A DNA stretch of 37,577 nt from a virus (taxonomy: Duplodnaviria > Heunggongvirae > Uroviricota > Caudoviricetes), in IMG/VR virus record IMGVR_UViG_2529292717_000013; one strand, given 5' to 3'. Each line of letters starts with the position of its first letter. The first letter of the stretch is position 1. Of the stretch, positions 1 to 5,807 are shown one piece after another. Position numbers and translations under genes: made by a program. A model generated the notes under the pieces. That model made no database searches and had not been told where the DNA came from. It worked only from the letters and a program-made list of their open reading frames with translations.

Positions 1-1002
1 TTACCCTCTATTGTCAAAAGGGTTCAATTCAACAGCAGCCTCTAAATGACCTGGAGCAAAATGCGCATAACGCATAGTCATTTTTATATCGCTATGCCCC
101 AGTATTTTTTGCAACACAAGAATATTTCCGCCCCGCATCATAAAATGACTGGCAAACGTGTGACGTAGCACATGAGTTAATTGCCCATCAGGAAGCTCGA
201 TCTTCGCTCTCTTAATTGCAGCGTCAAAAGCCTCATAACATGGTGAAAATAGCGCTCCTCGTTTTTTAGGAAGCATAGCCTGCAATTGAGGTGAAATCGG
301 TACAGTGCGGTTCTTCTTTCCTTTAGTTTTAACAAATGTGATTCGACCGGGCAGTACTTGAGATTGCTTTAATCCTTCTGCTTCACTCCACCGAGCACCA
401 GTCGCAAGCCCAATACGGACAACAACCCCCAAATCTTTATTCCGTGACTCATCACACGCAATCAGAAGGCGTTCAATCTCATCTACATACAGAAACGCCA
501 GTTCCTTTTCTTCCTCACGAAACTTGCGAATACCAGTCAGGGGGTTTTCACCAGACCACTCCCCAAGGCGCTTCAGTTCGGCAAAAACAGCATGTAGATA
601 TGACTGCTCGCGATTAACGGTTGCTTCACTAAGTTTTTTCTTCCCCTTGGGATTCCATTCTCCTGATAGCCTTCTTTCCCGATAAGTAGCAAACATATTT
701 TTGTCAAACTGCGAAGCAAATGGATCTCCCAGCCTGGAACAAATCGCCTCAAGTTTGACTTTGCGCTCTGCACCAGAGGACAAGGTTTTACCGTACATCT
801 CAAACCAACGAGCAATCAACTCAGAAAGACGAGGACCAGAACCATCTTGAAACTCGTCTCCAACTCTACTATTCATTAAACGGCGCTCATAAGAGAGCGC
901 CTCACTTTTTGTCGCAAACTGTTTACGAATGCGTTTTCCCGATGCCCCGTAGGGATAACATTCGCAAAGCCATTTACCTGATGGAATCTTACGAACCGAC
1001 AT
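1..1002 (-). CDS. int: tyrosine integrase (phage integrase family)
   Basis: 333-aa ORF; C-terminal catalytic region with HxxR and a terminal Tyr motif (LRHTFASHF...MRYAHF); position at the prophage end. Confidence 0.9.
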   Translation of the reverse strand: MSVRKIPSGKWLCECYPYGASGKRIRKQFATKSEALSYERRLMNSRVGDEFQDGSGPRLSELIARWFEMYGKTLSSGAERKVKLEAICSRLGDPFASQFDKNMFATYRERRLSGEWNPKGKKKLSEATVNREQSYLHAVFAELKRLGEWSGENPLTGIRKFREEEKELAFLYVDEIERLLIACDESRNKDLGVVVRIGLATGARWSEAEGLKQSQVLPGRITFVKTKGKKNRTVPISPQLQAMLPKKRGALFSPCYEAFDAAIKRAKIELPDGQLTHVLRHTFASHFMMRGGNILVLQKILGHSDIKMTMRYAHFAPGHLEAAVELNPFDNRG

Positions 1003-1007
1003 TTTAG

Positions 1008-1313
1008 TTACTTATCACATAAATCAAATGCAGCCTTAGTGACATCCCCCAGACTCTTTTTTAACCCTGGGGCGGCATCATTATCTAGCCAAAATGGATT
1101 ATTGTTATCTAACGGTAACGCACCAAATGTTTTACCTTTTATTCGAGCCAAACCTGTAAGTGCATATAACTTATTATCGTCAAAATTCATTACATAAGGA
1201 TTACCATCAAGACACTGTAATTGAACCTCATCAGTATTAAATGGCCACACCCCATTGAAACTCTCACGTTCAATGGTTTTAAAAGGCATTGCGACGGCGG
1301 AAAAAGAAAACAT
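1008..1313 (-). CDS. hypothetical secreted/periplasmic protein, lysogeny-operon cargo; a signal peptide is encoded in the adjacent frame upstream
   Basis: 101-aa ORF; a start at about 1354 in the -1 frame encodes MKVKKVQLLVTFYLCFLF, a typical signal peptide, across a T5 homopolymer. No family recognised. Confidence 0.5.
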   Translation of the reverse strand: MFSFSAVAMPFKTIERESFNGVWPFNTDEVQLQCLDGNPYVMNFDDNKLYALTGLARIKGKTFGALPLDNNNPFWLDNDAAPGLKKSLGDVTKAAFDLCDK

Positions 1314-1383
1314 AGATAAAAAGTAACTAATAGTTGAACCTTTTTAACTTTCATATCATTACCTCAATTTAGCTCAAGTAAGA

Positions 1384-2034
1384 TTACAAATTAAAAAACG
1401 CTCTAGAAATGACACCGCCTACCAACCCCCCTACGCAGATAAAGAATATTATTTCTTTTGGATAAAGTCGGATTAATTCTGAAGCACGAAGTCGGACTTC
1501 TGGTAAGGTCGAACTCTCTGTGTGGCTTGATGCCGATTGTTGCTCTAACCACGACAATGCAGACTGTAACTGAGAACGAGTAAGATCGTTTAAACGTCCT
1601 GTACCGAAATTGATATGGCAATACCGCAGAAGTTTTTGTCGAAGTCCACAGTCTTCACTGTTACGTAGTAATAAACTTACAAGAGCCTTACAGGCATCAT
1701 GATCTTTACATCGCTCAAGCATTGCATGCAGAAAACTCTCCGCTGTTTTATATTGATTTACTGTCATATCATCAATACCAGCTACACCAATCTCCGCATG
1801 TACTTTTTGCCAAATAATAAACGCTTCAGTATTGCTAGCTTCTGCAATAGCAGCAACCAAGCTATTTAGCTCCTTACGCTGAGCCTTAAGCAAAGGGCGA
1901 TCGTCATCATCATTATTCGAAGGGATTGCGATATTGACGGTATGAGAACCATCATATCGCTCTATCTGAATATTCTTTTCGTGAAAATCACGCCCAGCAA
2001 CGCGATTGTTTGAACCGTTTGAGTTGACGGCCAT
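1384..2034 (-). CDS. hypothetical C-terminally membrane-anchored protein, lysogeny-operon cargo
   Basis: 216-aa ORF; hydrophobic C-terminal helix (IIFFICVGGLVGGVISRAFF); N-terminus shares the motif NNR(V/I)AGRD(F/Y)xE with the repressor C-terminus. Confidence 0.55.
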   Translation of the reverse strand: MAVNSNGSNNRVAGRDFHEKNIQIERYDGSHTVNIAIPSNNDDDDRPLLKAQRKELNSLVAAIAEASNTEAFIIWQKVHAEIGVAGIDDMTVNQYKTAESFLHAMLERCKDHDACKALVSLLLRNSEDCGLRQKLLRYCHINFGTGRLNDLTRSQLQSALSWLEQQSASSHTESSTLPEVRLRASELIRLYPKEIIFFICVGGLVGGVISRAFFNL

Positions 2035-2049
2035 GTCACCTCCCTACTA

Positions 2050-2454
2050 TCACCTGCCCTTAGTTTCGTTATAGTCACGACCAGCGATACGGTTATTACC
2101 ACCAGAAATATTTAACTCACGTCCTGATGGCTGAGTTTCCTTTTCACTGATCGCACCTTTTAAAGCCCCAATCACCGCGTTTTTCACATCTAACGAAGCT
2201 GCTCGAAAGCGAGTAATCAACTCCTGCTCATCATCGTTATAAGTTTCAGGTGAGTGAATTCCCAACACAACATACTGAACATCAAGGCCAAAACGAGACA
2301 GCGCTGCCAAATACGCAGCATCAGGAAAGCTATCTCCTTTCTCATATCTAAGCTGAGTTAGCTTTTTGACTCCACCAATGTCGCTCATGGCTACTTGACT
2401 AAGTCCCAATCTTTCCCTTTCCTCACGCAACCGCTGACCAATATCATTTTTCAT
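2050..2454 (-). CDS. HTH_XRE-family immunity repressor (C/CI-like)
   Basis: 134 aa; N-terminal HTH (QRLREERERLGLSQVAMSDIGGVKKLTQLRYEKG); divergent from the early operon, same strand as int. Confidence 0.8.
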   Translation of the reverse strand: MKNDIGQRLREERERLGLSQVAMSDIGGVKKLTQLRYEKGDSFPDAAYLAALSRFGLDVQYVVLGIHSPETYNDDEQELITRFRAASLDVKNAVIGALKGAISEKETQPSGRELNISGGNNRIAGRDYNETKGR

Positions 2455-2463
2455 ACAAAAACC

Positions 2464-2492
2464 TTGACAGGTATCTTTTTTGATACCAAAAT
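2464..2492 (+). promoter_or_regulatory. candidate early promoter (TTGACA-N17-CAAAAT) overlapping a perfect palindromic operator GGTATC-T6-GATACC
   Basis: Read directly in the 75-bp divergent region between the repressor and the first early gene. Confidence 0.4.
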
Positions 2493-2529
2493 GATTTCAC
2501 GAGCTATTAGATGATCACAATATACCACT

Positions 2530-2736
2530 ATGAAACAAGTTCTTCACGATACCAGATCACGCATTCCGCGTAACACCGCCACAGGTCCAAGACTGGCACT
2601 TCGGCTGTCCCTCGAGGAGCGAGCCGTCATTGATGAAATGGCAGCTAAAGAACAACGCTCATCCTCTAACATGGCGCGCATGATCTTCCTTCGCGGCCTA
2701 GAACTAACCCAGAAAGAACAAAACAAATCTTCCTGA
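2530..2736 (+). CDS. hypothetical early protein, first gene of the early operon (possible small regulator)
   Basis: 68-aa ORF immediately downstream of the switch region. Confidence 0.5.
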   Translation: MKQVLHDTRSRIPRNTATGPRLALRLSLEERAVIDEMAAKEQRSSSNMARMIFLRGLELTQKEQNKSS

Positions 2737-2752
2737 TCAAGAGGCTAGTGGG

Positions 2753-2956
2753 ATGTCAGGTATAACCATCAATATCAATGTGAATGCCCCCTATGTATCC
2801 CTGCAGAAATATGCAGAGATAACAGGTATCCCTCTTAATACATGCAAAAAGATGTTGGCTGACGGTCGAATTATTATCCGCCCCAAACGCGCCAAAATGG
2901 AAAAGCCTGAAGTAAACCTTGTGGCGATGTTAAAAGACGCTTTGACTAACAGCTAA
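2753..2956 (+). CDS. Cox/Apl-like HTH excisionase-regulator (tentative)
   Basis: 67 aa; HTH-like segment YVSLQKYAEITGIPLNTCKKMLADGRI; second position in the early operon. Confidence 0.5.
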   Translation: MSGITININVNAPYVSLQKYAEITGIPLNTCKKMLADGRIIIRPKRAKMEKPEVNLVAMLKDALTNS

Positions 2957-4818: not shown

Positions 4819-4940
4819 GAAACCAGAACATGCACACACAAAAAAACCGCTTGCCATGCCGCAATCAGTCAGGTTACATTTCCGCTGCACCTCATAAAAC
4901 GGGTGCCGGGTTTCGCAGCCCGCTGACAAACGTAGCGCAC

Positions 4941-4962
4941 AACCGCGCCAGCGGTTTTTTTG
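4941..4962 (+). terminator. candidate rho-independent terminator (AACCGC-GCCA-GCGGTT + T7)
   Basis: Stem-loop followed by a T-run, about 120 bp after the 99-aa ORF. Confidence 0.4.
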
Positions 4963-5140
4963 TGCGTACTGTATCGCCACGTCTTTTTCGCATCTGAATT
5001 ATGGTGGGGCGTACGGGGCCGACTTCGGTCGGGCCGGGTTCTGCGTTTGCCGGTACTGCGAACCTCGTACGTCTCGCCACCCACAGTTTCGCAGCTCTGG
5101 ATGGTGAGTTTTCACAACTTACACACGTAGAGGCCACACC

Positions 5141-5371
5141 ATGGCAAACCGCAAACAGCACCGCGCTATCGCGGAGCGTCGTCACATCCAGACTGAAATC
5201 AACCGCAGACTTTCCCGCGCATCACGCGTCGCGCAAATCATGCACATCAATATGCTGCATGAGCGCAGCCACGCACTATCAAACATTTATTCCGCCTCTG
5301 TTTTCAGCTATCTGGCGGATGATCTGCACGAGCTTCAACAGCTCATCCAGCAGCAAAACAAACTCCATTAA
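5141..5371 (+). CDS. hypothetical protein
   Basis: 76-aa ORF. Confidence 0.4.
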   Translation: MANRKQHRAIAERRHIQTEINRRLSRASRVAQIMHINMLHERSHALSNIYSASVFSYLADDLHELQQLIQQQNKLH

Positions 5372-5522: not shown

Positions 5523-5807
5523 ATGTACCTGAAATCCCTGCCTGTACCGCAGCTCGCTGACGGAAAGATTGTTATTGATGGTCGCTACATGATTGACAGC
5601 CACGAGGGAAATTACAGGCTTTACCGCATTGAAGGTGGCACCCCGTCCGTTATTGGCATTTACCAGCGCCCATCCTCTGCAATCGTCGATGTGATTGCCG
5701 ACAGCATCCGCATCACACATCGCCATGCCGACACAGAAGACACCGTGCTGGAAATTCAGCGGCTGGCTACAGTCTGCCGCGACACCCTGAATGGCATGAC
5801 GAAGTAA
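5523..5807 (+). CDS. hypothetical protein immediately upstream of gene A
   Basis: 94-aa ORF. Confidence 0.5.
   Translation: MYLKSLPVPQLADGKIVIDGRYMIDSHEGNYRLYRIEGGTPSVIGIYQRPSSAIVDVIADSIRITHRHADTEDTVLEIQRLATVCRDTLNGMTK

What the first reader, a model, noticed from the sequence alone, without database searches (positions are those of the whole stretch)
1984..2100. Shared NNR(I/V)AGRD(F/Y)xE motif at the repressor C-terminus and the membrane-protein N-terminus
The repressor ends with NISGGNNRIAGRDYNETKGR and the adjacent 216-aa protein begins MAVNSNGSNNRVAGRDFHEKN. The DNA differs at synonymous positions, so the motif is conserved at the protein level rather than being a recent DNA duplication. 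It could be a common interaction, degradation or oligomerisation tag coupling repressor fate to the membrane protein.
Basis: seen in the sequence. Interest (0 to 1): 0.5.

Follow-up and report, generated by a model that had tools for sequence, protein, structure and literature searches.

The report
Repressor tail matches membrane-protein head
The prophage repressor ends with a short peptide that closely resembles the start of the membrane protein encoded next to it; this tail/head pairing recurs and co-varies in P2-like and Mu-like phages of many proteobacteria, so the two proteins most likely dock on each other, a coupling I found described nowhere.

Summary
The 134-aa XRE repressor (2050-2454, -) ends LNISGGNNRIAGRDYNE-TKGR. 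The 216-aa protein encoded 15 nt downstream (1384-2034, -) begins M-AVNSNGSNNRVAGRDFHE (BLASTP E=3e-5).

It is one case of a general pattern. In 47 non-redundant loci, the C-terminal tail of this repressor family matches the N-terminal head of the next gene's product. These include phages B3, BcepMu and KS10, and a P2-like prophage found in 520 of 5426 complete E. coli genomes. Tail and head change together between loci: the summed cognate score is 2247 against 1347 +/- 75 when partners are shuffled.

Codon use at shared residues is at the level expected by chance (116 identical codons against 114 expected). Selection therefore acts on the protein, and gene conversion is not the cause.

Both peptides are predicted disordered and sit on flexible linkers. 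Most partners are membrane proteins of unrelated architecture; here the partner is a Flk_N domain with a C-terminal anchor. Only this two-gene cassette is shared between P2-like and Mu-like phages.

Best reading: the peptides are a private docking pair that couples the immunity repressor to a membrane protein. The direction of control and the physical nature of the contact are untested. The contact could be a simple beta-strand pairing or an amyloid-like assembly.

The parts
2050..2454 (-). XRE-family immunity repressor, 134 aa. HTH at residues 5-64, two helices at 74-104, disordered tail at 107-134.
   Evidence: ORF. HTH_31/HTH_3 and phrog_8 matches. P22 C2-like HTH. AF2 pLDDT 80-96 for residues 1-104 and 41-51 for the tail. 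The gene is divergent from the Arc-like/Cox-like early genes.
2065..2115 (-). Tail motif, repressor residues 114-130: LNISGGNNRIAGRDYNE. Family consensus INVSGxGNRvAGRDyNE.
2053..2064 (-). Short basic C-terminal end after the motif (TKGR). In relatives it reads NKK, GKKKK or RRRKTK.
2035..2052 (-). Junction: TGA TAG TAG GGAGGTGAC, i.e. three in-frame stops followed by a ribosome-binding site. No terminator-like site. In many related loci the two genes overlap by ATGA.
1384..2034 (-). 216-aa tail-anchored membrane protein, the partner of the repressor.
   Evidence: ORF. phrog_5825 E=2e-102. Precomputed Pfam family PF27202 Flk_N.
1978..2028 (-). Head motif, partner residues 3-19: VNSNGSNNRVAGRDFHE.
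1918..1977 (-). Second conserved, disordered-predicted part of the head, residues 20-39 (KNIQIERYDGSHTVNIAIPS). It may be a second pseudo-repeat.
   Evidence: Nearly invariant columns in alignment A3. pLDDT below 50.
1519..1896 (-). Flk_N helical cytoplasmic domain, residues 47-172.
   Evidence: NCBIfam Flk match, E=8.6e-16, residues 37-166. AF2 pLDDT 79-94, six helices.
1390..1461 (-). C-terminal transmembrane anchor, residues 192-215.
   Evidence: Hydrophobic helix in the AF2 model. Conserved hydrophobic end in homologues.
2455..2529 (.). Switch region between the repressor gene and the early operon. Contains a promoter-like site at 2464-2492 (+) and short direct and inverted repeats.
   Evidence: These are consensus matches only.
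2530..2956 (+). First early genes: Arc-like (2530-2736) and Cox-like (2753-2956).
   Evidence: phrog_3431 and phrog_575.
1..1313 (-). Rest of the lysogeny operon: DUF2511-like gene (1008-1313, frameshifted relative to O157:H7) and the integrase (1-1002).
   Evidence: No terminator-like site between the genes.

Best explanation
The shared peptide is one allele of a co-evolving 'tail/head' docking pair. The disordered C-terminal tail of the prophage's XRE immunity repressor and the disordered cytoplasmic N-terminal head of the membrane protein encoded next in the operon recognise each other directly. The two peptides read alike in the same N-to-C order. They are rich in G, N, Q and alternating hydrophobic residues. 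The most likely contact is therefore a homotypic beta-strand (parallel, in-register or pseudo-symmetric) pairing that forms only on association.

The result is a physical link between the lysis/lysogeny repressor and a membrane-anchored protein. My preferred functional reading is inferred, not shown. The membrane partner acts as a membrane-bound modulator of the repressor, by tethering, sequestering or releasing it. This would tie the switch of phages that lack an SOS-cleavable repressor to a membrane or envelope cue. The motif variants would keep each prophage's pair private.

Shown: the match, its conservation, its co-variation, protein-level selection, predicted disorder of both peptides, the operon arrangement, the immunity-locus position and the membrane nature of most partners.

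Inferred: direct binding, the beta-type contact and the direction of control.
For: 1. Match and conservation.

2. Co-variation.
- In 30 non-redundant loci from genomes, cognate tail/head scores sum to 1369 against 812 +/- 55 for shuffled partners (0 of 20000 shuffles reach it).
- With viral contigs and sequenced phages added, 47 pairs give 2247 against 1347 +/- 75, z=12.
- Outside the NRxAGRD class z=11; within it z=2.
- Examples: QQINGPISGGVAGRDFVQ / KQEINGDVEGGIAGRDIVR; YGNAQIGQASAGDIVN / FGGAQIDQAAAGDINN; B3 ISVTGDGNRTAGRDFHE / IEVTGSNNIVAGRDFIE; KS10 ASGSGITQVGSRVRI / ASGFGIIQVAGDLSI.

3. No DNA homogenisation: 116 of 248 identical residues use the same codon, against 113.8 expected.

4. 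Both peptides are predicted disordered although they are among the best conserved parts of the two proteins.

5. Gene arrangement. The genes are adjacent, often overlapping by ATGA. No terminator-like site lies between them here.

6. Only the two-gene cassette is shared between P2-like and B3/BcepMu-like phages. The divergent gene is Arc/Cox in the first and Ner-like in the second. No third phage-encoded partner travels with it.

7. Repressor homologues without a tail are followed by unrelated genes without a head. No case of a head without a tail was seen.

8. 39 of 47 partners have a predicted TM segment by a strict test, with the head on the N-terminal side.

9. Different variants occur in the same host or strain.

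10. For the regulator reading.
- A Flk_N-like subdomain is also fused to Rha-type and AntA/ORF6C antirepressor-type phage proteins. The best viral fold match is an ORF6C protein, a weak match at E=6e-3.
- Some partners have a coiled coil, a TM segment and a small periplasmic Cys-containing domain.
- The repressor has no peptidase domain.
Against: - No binding experiment or complex model exists. A two-chain prediction could not be run with the tools at hand.
- AF2 gives no structure for either peptide.
- Equimolar, translationally coupled synthesis fits a constitutive complex, as in toxin-antitoxin pairs, better than a conditional anti-repressor.
- The diversity of partners is what one expects of swappable effectors.
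- A few repressors keep the tail with no partner, or with only a remnant of one (L011, L016, L028, L030, L055, L169, L170). The tail can therefore persist alone for some time.
- Within the enterobacterial NRxAGRD class, pair-specific matching is weak (z=2). 'Privacy' holds between classes, not between close relatives.
- The charged R and D are identical in both peptides, which is not ideal for in-register stacking.
Confidence: 0.6

Rival explanations
1. Amyloid-like (prion-type) signalling. The repressor tail acts as a template that converts the head of the membrane protein into a cross-beta fold and so switches on a membrane effector. That effector would cause abortive infection or cell death, as with fungal NWD2/HET-S, bacterial NLR/Bell pairs and E. 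coli Agp/Bab.
For: - The hallmark used to discover amyloid signalling motifs is a short motif of about 20 residues shared by the termini of products of adjacent genes (papers read). That hallmark is present here.
- The composition is G/N/Q-rich with alternating hydrophobic residues.
- Both motifs sit on flexible linkers and are predicted disordered in the monomer.
- Heads often carry two or three pseudo-repeats while tails carry one, for example BcepMu gp18 and L003. HET-S (two repeats) and NWD2 (one) show the same arrangement.
- The partners are membrane proteins.
- A system of this kind in a prophage region of E. coli has been described.
Against: - The orientation is reversed: the motif is at the C-terminus of the putative sensor and the N-terminus of the membrane protein.
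- The 'sensor' is a small DNA-binding repressor, not an oligomerising NLR or TGP protein.
- The partners are already membrane-anchored and show no Bell/HeLo-like domain.
- The Flk_N domain looks regulatory rather than pore-forming.
- There is no match to PADLOC defence models.
- No fibril or aggregation evidence can be obtained here.
Confidence: 0.2
2. Toxin-antitoxin-like control. The repressor also serves as an antitoxin whose tail holds the membrane protein inactive. Loss or titration of the repressor then frees the membrane protein. Triggers could be induction, prophage loss, or an incoming phage's antirepressor or operators. This is a 'guard' of the repressor.
For: - The layout is that of a type II TA pair: an upstream HTH protein with a disordered C-terminal tail and a downstream gene that is overlapping or closely coupled.
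- Downstream modules are diverse and swappable.
- The tail ends in a basic stretch reminiscent of ClpX C-terminal recognition signals such as that of MuA (own knowledge).
- Genes expressed in the lysogen next to repressors are often defence or exclusion genes.
- In beetrevirus Fc02 the gene after repC is co-transcribed in the lysogen.
Against: - There is no significant match to a known toxin or antitoxin family: MqsA_antitoxin E=0.085 in Pfam, a TIGR03830 MqsA-family hit at 21.7 bits against a cut-off of 61.8 that covers only HTH residues 5-48, and no PADLOC match for the partner.
- Every motif-bearing locus whose flanks could be classified lies at the immunity locus of a prophage, and none was seen as a free module in a chromosomal island; the plasmid search gave only three hits, whose context I did not examine.
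- A TA pair does not need the two peptides to look alike.
Confidence: 0.2
3. Tail mimicry. The tail normally docks on a site of the repressor itself (its core, or a neighbouring dimer) or on operator DNA. The membrane protein's head imitates the tail and competes for that site. Head and tail would then never touch each other. This is comparable to SinI, which takes the place of a SinR subunit.
For: - Same-order sequence similarity is what a competitor for one binding site would show.
- Co-variation would follow because the site lies in the same repressor.
- SinI/SinR is a precedent for an antagonist that shares the oligomerisation motif of an XRE repressor and is encoded next to it (own knowledge).
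Against: - AF2 does not dock the tail on the repressor core in any of five models; tail pLDDT is 41-51.
- Repressor homologues without a tail exist, so the core does not need a tail.
- No SinI-type domain is found and no helix is predicted in the motif.
Confidence: 0.12
4. Both peptides are recognised by a common third party in the host, such as a protease, adaptor, chaperone or membrane-targeting factor. This is the 'degradation tag' reading.
For: - Both peptides are disordered termini.
- The C-terminal tail of the phage Mu repressor controls its ClpXP and Lon degradation (own knowledge).
- A basic C-terminal end follows the tail motif.
Against: - The motif varies widely among phages of one host species and even one strain, while tail and head stay matched.
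- The same NRxAGRD class serves in E. coli (P2-like) and P. aeruginosa (B3).
- No third gene travels with the cassette.
Confidence: 0.05
5. A leftover of a recent local duplication or gene conversion, or a chance resemblance, with no function.
For: The two copies lie within 90 nt of each other.
Against: - Codon identity is at the chance level over 248 shared residues in 26 loci.
- The motif is conserved and co-varies across Gamma- and Betaproteobacteria.
- BLASTP E=3e-5.
Confidence: 0.01

Closest known systems
Amyloid signalling motif pairs: fungal NWD2/HET-S, bacterial BASS1-10 in NLR/Bell pairs, and BASS11 in E. coli Agp/Bab.
   Same: A motif of about 20 residues is shared by the termini of the products of adjacent genes. 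One partner targets the membrane. The motifs sit on linkers, are G/N/Q-rich and fall into distinct families. Effectors often carry more repeats than the other partner.
   Different: - The motif is at the C-terminus of a small XRE repressor and the N-terminus of an already anchored membrane protein.
- No NLR or TGP sensor is present and no Bell/HeLo domain is found.
- The locus is the phage immunity switch, not a defence island.
- Amyloid formation is untested.
- The papers I read do not mention HTH or XRE partners.
SinI/SinR (and SlrA/SlrR) of Bacillus subtilis.
   Same: An XRE-type repressor and the product of a neighbouring gene share the repressor's C-terminal association motif. The small partner acts through that shared motif.
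   Different: - The Sin motif is a helical hook; here the motif is predicted disordered and beta-prone, and no SinI domain is found.
- The partner here is a membrane protein encoded downstream in the same operon.
- The context is a prophage.
Type II toxin-antitoxin operons with HTH-XRE antitoxins.
   Same: The gene order is the same, with translational coupling. The C-terminal tail of the DNA-binding protein is disordered and is the likely contact with the downstream product.
   Different: - Antitoxin tails do not resemble their toxins.
- No known toxin family is matched.
- The module is tied to the immunity locus of P2-like and Mu-like phages.
Flk, the flagellar export regulator of Salmonella and E. 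coli.
   Same: The window's partner shares the Flk_N helical domain and the C-terminal membrane anchor facing the cytoplasm.
   Different: - It scores 58 bits against a family cut-off of 353.
- It is 216 aa rather than about 330 aa.
- It is encoded in a prophage.
- True Flk proteins start MQPxSGP and have no head motif.
Lambda cI-rexA-rexB and other genes expressed from the lysogen next to the repressor gene.
   Same: A membrane protein is co-transcribed with the immunity repressor in the lysogen.
   Different: No sequence relation exists, and Rex proteins share no motif with CI.

Membership tests
Amyloid signalling motif pair (FASS/BASS type) | A short motif shared by the products of adjacent genes. 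| tested here: met
Amyloid signalling motif pair (FASS/BASS type) | The motif lies at the N-terminus of an oligomerising receptor (NLR, STAND or TGP) and at the C-terminus of the effector. | tested here: not met
   The motif is at the C-terminus of a 134-aa XRE protein and at the N-terminus of the membrane protein.
Amyloid signalling motif pair (FASS/BASS type) | The effector carries a HeLo, Hell, Bell or Bab-type membrane-targeting death domain. | tested here: not met
   The Pfam scans of the window's partner and of 10 other partners returned no such domain; whether the library copy holds Bell-type models was not checked. The partners are TM-anchored proteins of other kinds.
Amyloid signalling motif pair (FASS/BASS type) | The motif forms amyloid fibrils, behaves as a prion-forming domain and cross-seeds. 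| not testable with these tools
   This needs peptides with ThT, EM or ssNMR, or in vivo foci assays.
Amyloid signalling motif pair (FASS/BASS type) | A match to one of the published BASS1-11 profiles. | not tested
   The profiles and sequences are not in the papers' held text.
SinI/SinR-type antagonist pair | An XRE repressor and the product of an adjacent gene share the repressor's C-terminal association motif. | tested here: met
SinI/SinR-type antagonist pair | The motif is the helical-hook Sin domain. | tested here: not met
   No SinI domain is found in Pfam. The tail is predicted without a helix, pLDDT 41-51.
Type II toxin-antitoxin (XRE antitoxin) | An upstream HTH gene that is coupled to, or overlaps, the downstream gene. 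| tested here: met
   The gap is 15 nt here and the genes overlap by 4 nt (gap -4) in many loci.
Type II toxin-antitoxin (XRE antitoxin) | The downstream product is toxic and is neutralised by the upstream one. | not testable with these tools
   This needs expression experiments.
Type II toxin-antitoxin (XRE antitoxin) | Homology to a known toxin or antitoxin family. | tested here: not met
   MqsA_antitoxin E=0.085 in Pfam. A TIGR03830 MqsA-family hit at 21.7 bits against a cut-off of 61.8, covering HTH residues 5-48 only. PADLOC gives only weak HTH hits and nothing for the partner.
Flk (flagella biosynthesis regulator) | Flk_N domain. | tested here: met
   NCBIfam NF007987, E=8.6e-16, residues 37-166. 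Precomputed Pfam family PF27202 Flk_N.
Flk (flagella biosynthesis regulator) | A full-length equivalog score (at least 353 bits) and a length of about 330 aa. | tested here: not met
   58.1 bits and 216 aa.
Flk (flagella biosynthesis regulator) | A C-terminal membrane anchor. | tested here: met
Temperate-phage immunity repressor (CI/C type) | An HTH protein encoded divergently from the early lytic operon, next to the integration or transposition genes. | tested here: met
   The window, P2-like loci and Mu-like loci. B3 ORF18, BcepMu gp17 and KS10 gp13 are annotated as repressors.
Temperate-phage immunity repressor (CI/C type) | It confers immunity and represses the early promoter. | not testable with these tools
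   Shown only for RepC of the related beetrevirus Fc02. I could not obtain that sequence, so its membership in this family is not verified.

The most novel reading that the evidence does not exclude
The tail and head are a new class of prion-like or amyloid signalling motif. A phage immunity repressor would then be one end of a cross-beta relay to a membrane protein. Either the state of the lysogeny switch is passed to the membrane as an effector or abortive response, or the state of the membrane is passed to the switch, causing induction. The signal would travel by templated folding of a 17-25 residue peptide. The many motif classes would act as insulated channels in polylysogens.
Probability: 0.22. 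Interest if true: 0.9.

Novelty: new variant of a known kind. Interest (0 to 1): 0.74.

Why it matters
The cassette is common. It occurs in about one in ten complete E. coli genomes, including many O157:H7 strains. It is also present in the long-known transposable phages B3, BcepMu and KS10, whose downstream genes have no assigned function.

It suggests that many P2-like and Mu-like repressors, which lack an SOS-cleavable domain, are wired to a membrane protein through a short matched peptide pair. That wiring would be a new input or output of the lysis/lysogeny decision.

The motif classes offer a ready set of orthogonal peptide pairs. The hypothesis can be tested directly with peptides, two-hybrid assays, motif swaps and deletions. 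If the contact proves to be amyloid-like, amyloid signalling would extend from NLR-type immune receptors to transcriptional repressors of phages.

Tried and rejected
- Chance or a recent duplication: rejected by the BLASTP E-value, conservation, co-variation and the codon test.
- Known defence system: PADLOC gave nothing for the partner and only weak HTH hits for the repressor.
- Fold of the partner: Foldseek against the PDB gave nothing significant, and a PDB sequence search gave nothing. BFVD gave only a weak ORF6C hit. The AlphaFold-database library was not available.
- Complex prediction of tail plus head: not possible. The structure tool takes one chain made of window or database sequences. 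The two ORFs are separated by three stops, and I found no natural fusion among the homologues.
- Literature: full-text searches for the peptide strings found two unrelated papers. Searches for Flk with prophage and repressor, for B3-like repressors, and for amyloid signalling with HTH or prophage found no description of this pairing. The KS10 paper lists gp12 as 'no significant match'.
- Phage Fc02 (validated repressor RepC plus downstream e4): its sequence was not in the phage collection under the queries I tried. Its membership in this family is unverified.
- A third conserved gene as a common partner: none found.
- Read-through fusion of the two ORFs: unlikely, given three stops here and different frames or overlaps elsewhere.
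Full report
**Observation.** The window is a P2-like prophage, 97% identical to Escherichia phage 520873 over bases 1000-2800. On the minus strand lie the integrase (1-1002), a DUF2511-like gene (1008-1313), a 216-aa ORF (1384-2034) and a 134-aa XRE-type HTH protein (2050-2454). The HTH gene is divergent from an Arc-like and a Cox-like gene. The HTH protein ends ...RELNISGGNNRIAGRDYNETKGR. After TGA TAG TAG GGAGGTGAC, the next ORF begins MAVNSNGSNNRVAGRDFHEKN. BLASTP of the two proteins finds only this stretch: 10/17 identical, 15/17 positive, E=3e-5. The DNA differs at synonymous positions.

**Conservation.** All 120 listed homologues of the 216-aa protein (59-98% identity) start M.VNS.G..NR.AGRDF.EN.IQID.FDGRHTINIAIPS. 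They come from Escherichia, Klebsiella, Serratia, Enterobacter, Citrobacter, Erwinia and others. This head is among the best conserved parts of the protein. About 60 of the closest repressor homologues end (I/V)N(V/I)(S/T)G.G.R(V/I)AGRD(Y/F).E.KK. They come from Yersinia, Serratia, Klebsiella, Salmonella, Dickeya, Pectobacterium, Erwinia and Hafnia. More distant repressor homologues have other G/N/Q-rich tails, such as FHGSVGQ..., NGQISAGNIYNN and GVGQQFNGPVG.V.SGDV.N. These usually end in a run of K or R.

**The key result.** I fetched 80 genomic loci that encode relatives of the repressor and read the gene downstream of each. Where the repressor carries such a tail, the next ORF starts with a peptide that resembles that tail in the same order; five of these loci had no partner (see Exceptions). 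The gap to the next ORF is usually -4 to +30 nt and is often an ATGA overlap. The resemblance follows the variant:

- QQINGPISGGVAGRDFVQ / KQEINGDVEGGIAGRDIVR (L013)
- KQVFKGSVSGVAGRDVVK / KQTFKGPVGDVAGNDVVK (L017)
- YGNAQIGQASAGDIVN / FGGAQIDQAAAGDINN (L018)
- IFNGDISGQFAGNQIINN / EFNGTAQGQFSSRDIINI (L012)

The same holds in sequenced phages:

- B3 ORF18/ORF20: ISVTGDGNRTAGRDFHE / IEVTGSNNIVAGRDFIE
- BcepMu gp17/gp18: QVFHGSVGQAVKVEGN / QEFNKPVGQAIQAGEAN
- KS10 gp13/gp12: ASGSGITQVGSRVRI / ASGFGIIQVAGDLSI

**Statistics.**
- For 30 non-redundant motif-bearing loci, the summed local alignment score of cognate tail/head pairs is 1369, against 812 +/- 55 for shuffled partners. None of 20000 shuffles reaches it.
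- After adding IMG/VR contigs and the phages, 47 pairs give 2247 against 1347 +/- 75, z=12.
- The signal is mostly between motif classes. It is z=11 outside the NRxAGRD class and z=2 within it.
- At 248 positions where tail and head share a residue (26 loci), the same codon is used 116 times, against 113.8 expected from codon usage. The likeness is therefore kept by selection on the peptides. Gene conversion or recent duplication does not explain it.

**Context.** All motif-bearing loci whose flanks could be classified are prophages. They are either P2-like, with integrase and a gpA-like gene (Enterobacterales, Aeromonas), or B3/BcepMu-like transposable phages. The latter carry transposase, MuB, Ner-like, Gam, GemA, Mor and a Mu-type portal gene. 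They occur in Pseudomonas, Gilliamella, Pectobacterium, Bordetella, Burkholderia, Rhodocyclaceae and others.

In both phage types the XRE gene sits where the immunity repressor sits, divergent from the first early gene. That gene is Arc/Cox-like in the P2-like phages and Ner-like in the Mu-like ones. Only the repressor-partner cassette is common to the two types.

B3 ORF18, BcepMu gp17 and KS10 gp13 are annotated as repressors. In the beetrevirus Fc02 the repressor RepC at this position was validated genetically. The accessory gene after it, e4, is co-transcribed in the lysogen and has no known function (PMC9936078). I could not obtain the Fc02 sequence, so I cannot say that RepC and e4 carry the motif.

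The window's cassette occurs in 520 of 5426 complete E. coli genomes, including many O157:H7 strains. In the one O157:H7 genome examined (strain 2149) it lies next to yecA.

**The two proteins.** AF2 models the repressor as an HTH domain (residues 5-64) plus two helices (74-104) with confidence. The tail (107-134) has pLDDT 41-51. The HTH resembles that of P22 C2.

The partner has four parts:
- a head with pLDDT below 50 (residues 1-40);
- a confident helical domain (47-172);
- a linker;
- a C-terminal transmembrane helix (192-215).

The helical domain matches the Flk flagellar regulator (NCBIfam E=8.6e-16, far below the equivalog cut-off) and is Pfam PF27202 Flk_N.

An exhaustive profile search finds only 136 representatives at 50% identity. 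Genuine Flk proteins (MQPxSGP..., 320-430 aa) lack the head. The short prophage-type members carry heads of many classes. A Flk_N-like subdomain is also fused to Rha and AntA/ORF6C phage regulatory proteins. The best viral fold match is an ORF6C protein, a weak match.

Partners in other loci are unrelated to Flk_N:
- two-TM proteins;
- a zinc ribbon plus TM segments;
- a coiled coil, a TM segment and a small periplasmic Cys domain;
- a few without a TM segment (KS10 gp12, L059, L033).

By a strict hydropathy test, 39 of 47 partners have at least one TM segment. Several of the rest have short hydrophobic C-terminal ends.

**Interpretation.** A peptide pair that is disordered alone, strongly conserved, similar in the same order, co-varying and under protein-level selection is best explained by mutual recognition.

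- A host factor that reads both peptides is unlikely. Different classes coexist in one species or strain: KS10 and BcepMu in B. cenocepacia J2315 (PMC2628397), and two classes each in P. aeruginosa and Pectobacterium. One class also serves in both E. coli and P. aeruginosa.
- A third phage protein is unlikely because nothing else travels with the cassette.
- Independent self-association of each protein would not require a match.

I therefore take direct docking of tail on head as the most likely mechanism. It is probably a parallel or pseudo-symmetric beta pairing. I cannot exclude that the head mimics the tail and competes for a site on the repressor itself.

**Function (inferred).** Homologues without a tail also lack a head-bearing neighbour. 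The tail therefore exists for the partner.

Two directions of control are possible. I slightly prefer that the membrane protein modulates the repressor by tethering, sequestering or releasing it. The reasons are:
- these repressors have no self-cleavage domain;
- Flk_N-like modules occur in antirepressor-type phage proteins;
- Flk itself is a membrane-anchored regulator;
- some partners look like transmembrane signalling proteins.

The opposite direction has the repressor holding or triggering a membrane effector, either like a toxin-antitoxin pair or like amyloid signalling. It is supported by the TA-like gene layout, by the swappable partners and by the precedent of matched motifs in NWD2/HET-S, NLR/Bell and Agp/Bab. 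None of this can be settled without experiments.

**Comparison with known systems.** The closest concept is amyloid signalling between products of adjacent genes. The shared-motif feature is met. The receptor type, the orientation and the effector domain are not met, and fibril formation is untested. SinI/SinR shares the logic of a neighbour that carries the repressor's association motif, but its helical Sin domain is absent here. The type II TA layout is met, while homology and toxicity are not shown. The partner is not Flk; it only shares the Flk_N domain.

I found no paper that describes this tail/head match. I rate it a new variant of a known kind.

**Exceptions and limits.**
- Five repressors with tails have no recognisable partner (L011, L016, L028, L030, L055).
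- In L016, L169 and L170 only the periplasmic end of a partner remains.
- Start codons of some partners were chosen by best match to the tail. This slightly favours the cognate score in that subset. The first set used the first start found.
- Permutation tests ignore phylogeny. However, relatedness alone does not make a tail resemble a head.

Noticed in passing
window 4887-4961 (+) and 4997-5084 (+): Rfam matches above gathering score to isrK (69.6 bits) and C4 antisense RNA (80.4 bits). They lie inside the early operon, upstream of two small ORFs (5141-5371, phrog_3688; 5523-5807, phrog_3237) and the gpA-like replication gene. This resembles the RNA-controlled icd/ant module of P1 or the IsrK region of Gifsy-1. 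It could be a separate antirepressor route in this P2-like phage.
   Followed up: partly
window 1008-1354 (-): The DUF2511-like gene is split. Compared with E. coli O157:H7 strain 2149, one T is missing from a T-run near 1320-1325, so the signal peptide (ORF 1190-1354) is out of frame with the mature part (1008-1313). This could be a pseudogene, a slippage site or a sequencing error.
   Followed up: yes
window 2035-2052 (-): The repressor gene ends with three consecutive in-frame stop codons (TGA TAG TAG). The partner gene follows in the same frame after a strong ribosome-binding site.
   Followed up: yes
window 2440-2545: The switch region holds a promoter-like site for the early operon (TTGACA-17-CAAAAT, 2464-2492). 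It also holds a 19-nt imperfect inverted repeat (2443-2461 / 2477-2495) and direct repeats ATACCAAAATGA / ATACCACTATGA 39 nt apart. These are candidate operators.
   Followed up: no
P0346 and P0370 (database proteins): A Flk_N-like subdomain is fused to Phage_pRha in P0346 and to AntA plus ORF6C antirepressor domains in P0370. This hints that part of Flk_N is a module of phage regulatory proteins.
   Followed up: partly
L016, L169 and L170, downstream of the repressor gene: In Janthinobacterium-type Mu-like prophages the repressor keeps its tail (QMVFHGKVGQQIHGDI...). Only the C-terminal periplasmic CxFDGKAYTxG piece of a partner gene is left.
   Followed up: partly
P0279, P0284, P0298, P0304 and P0305 (database proteins): Some Flk_N membrane proteins carry an extra N-terminal helix (M..DERLAKLAE.L) before a different G/N-rich motif (IKVKGAGN.INVGGTQVN). 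Their neighbouring genes were not examined.
   Followed up: no
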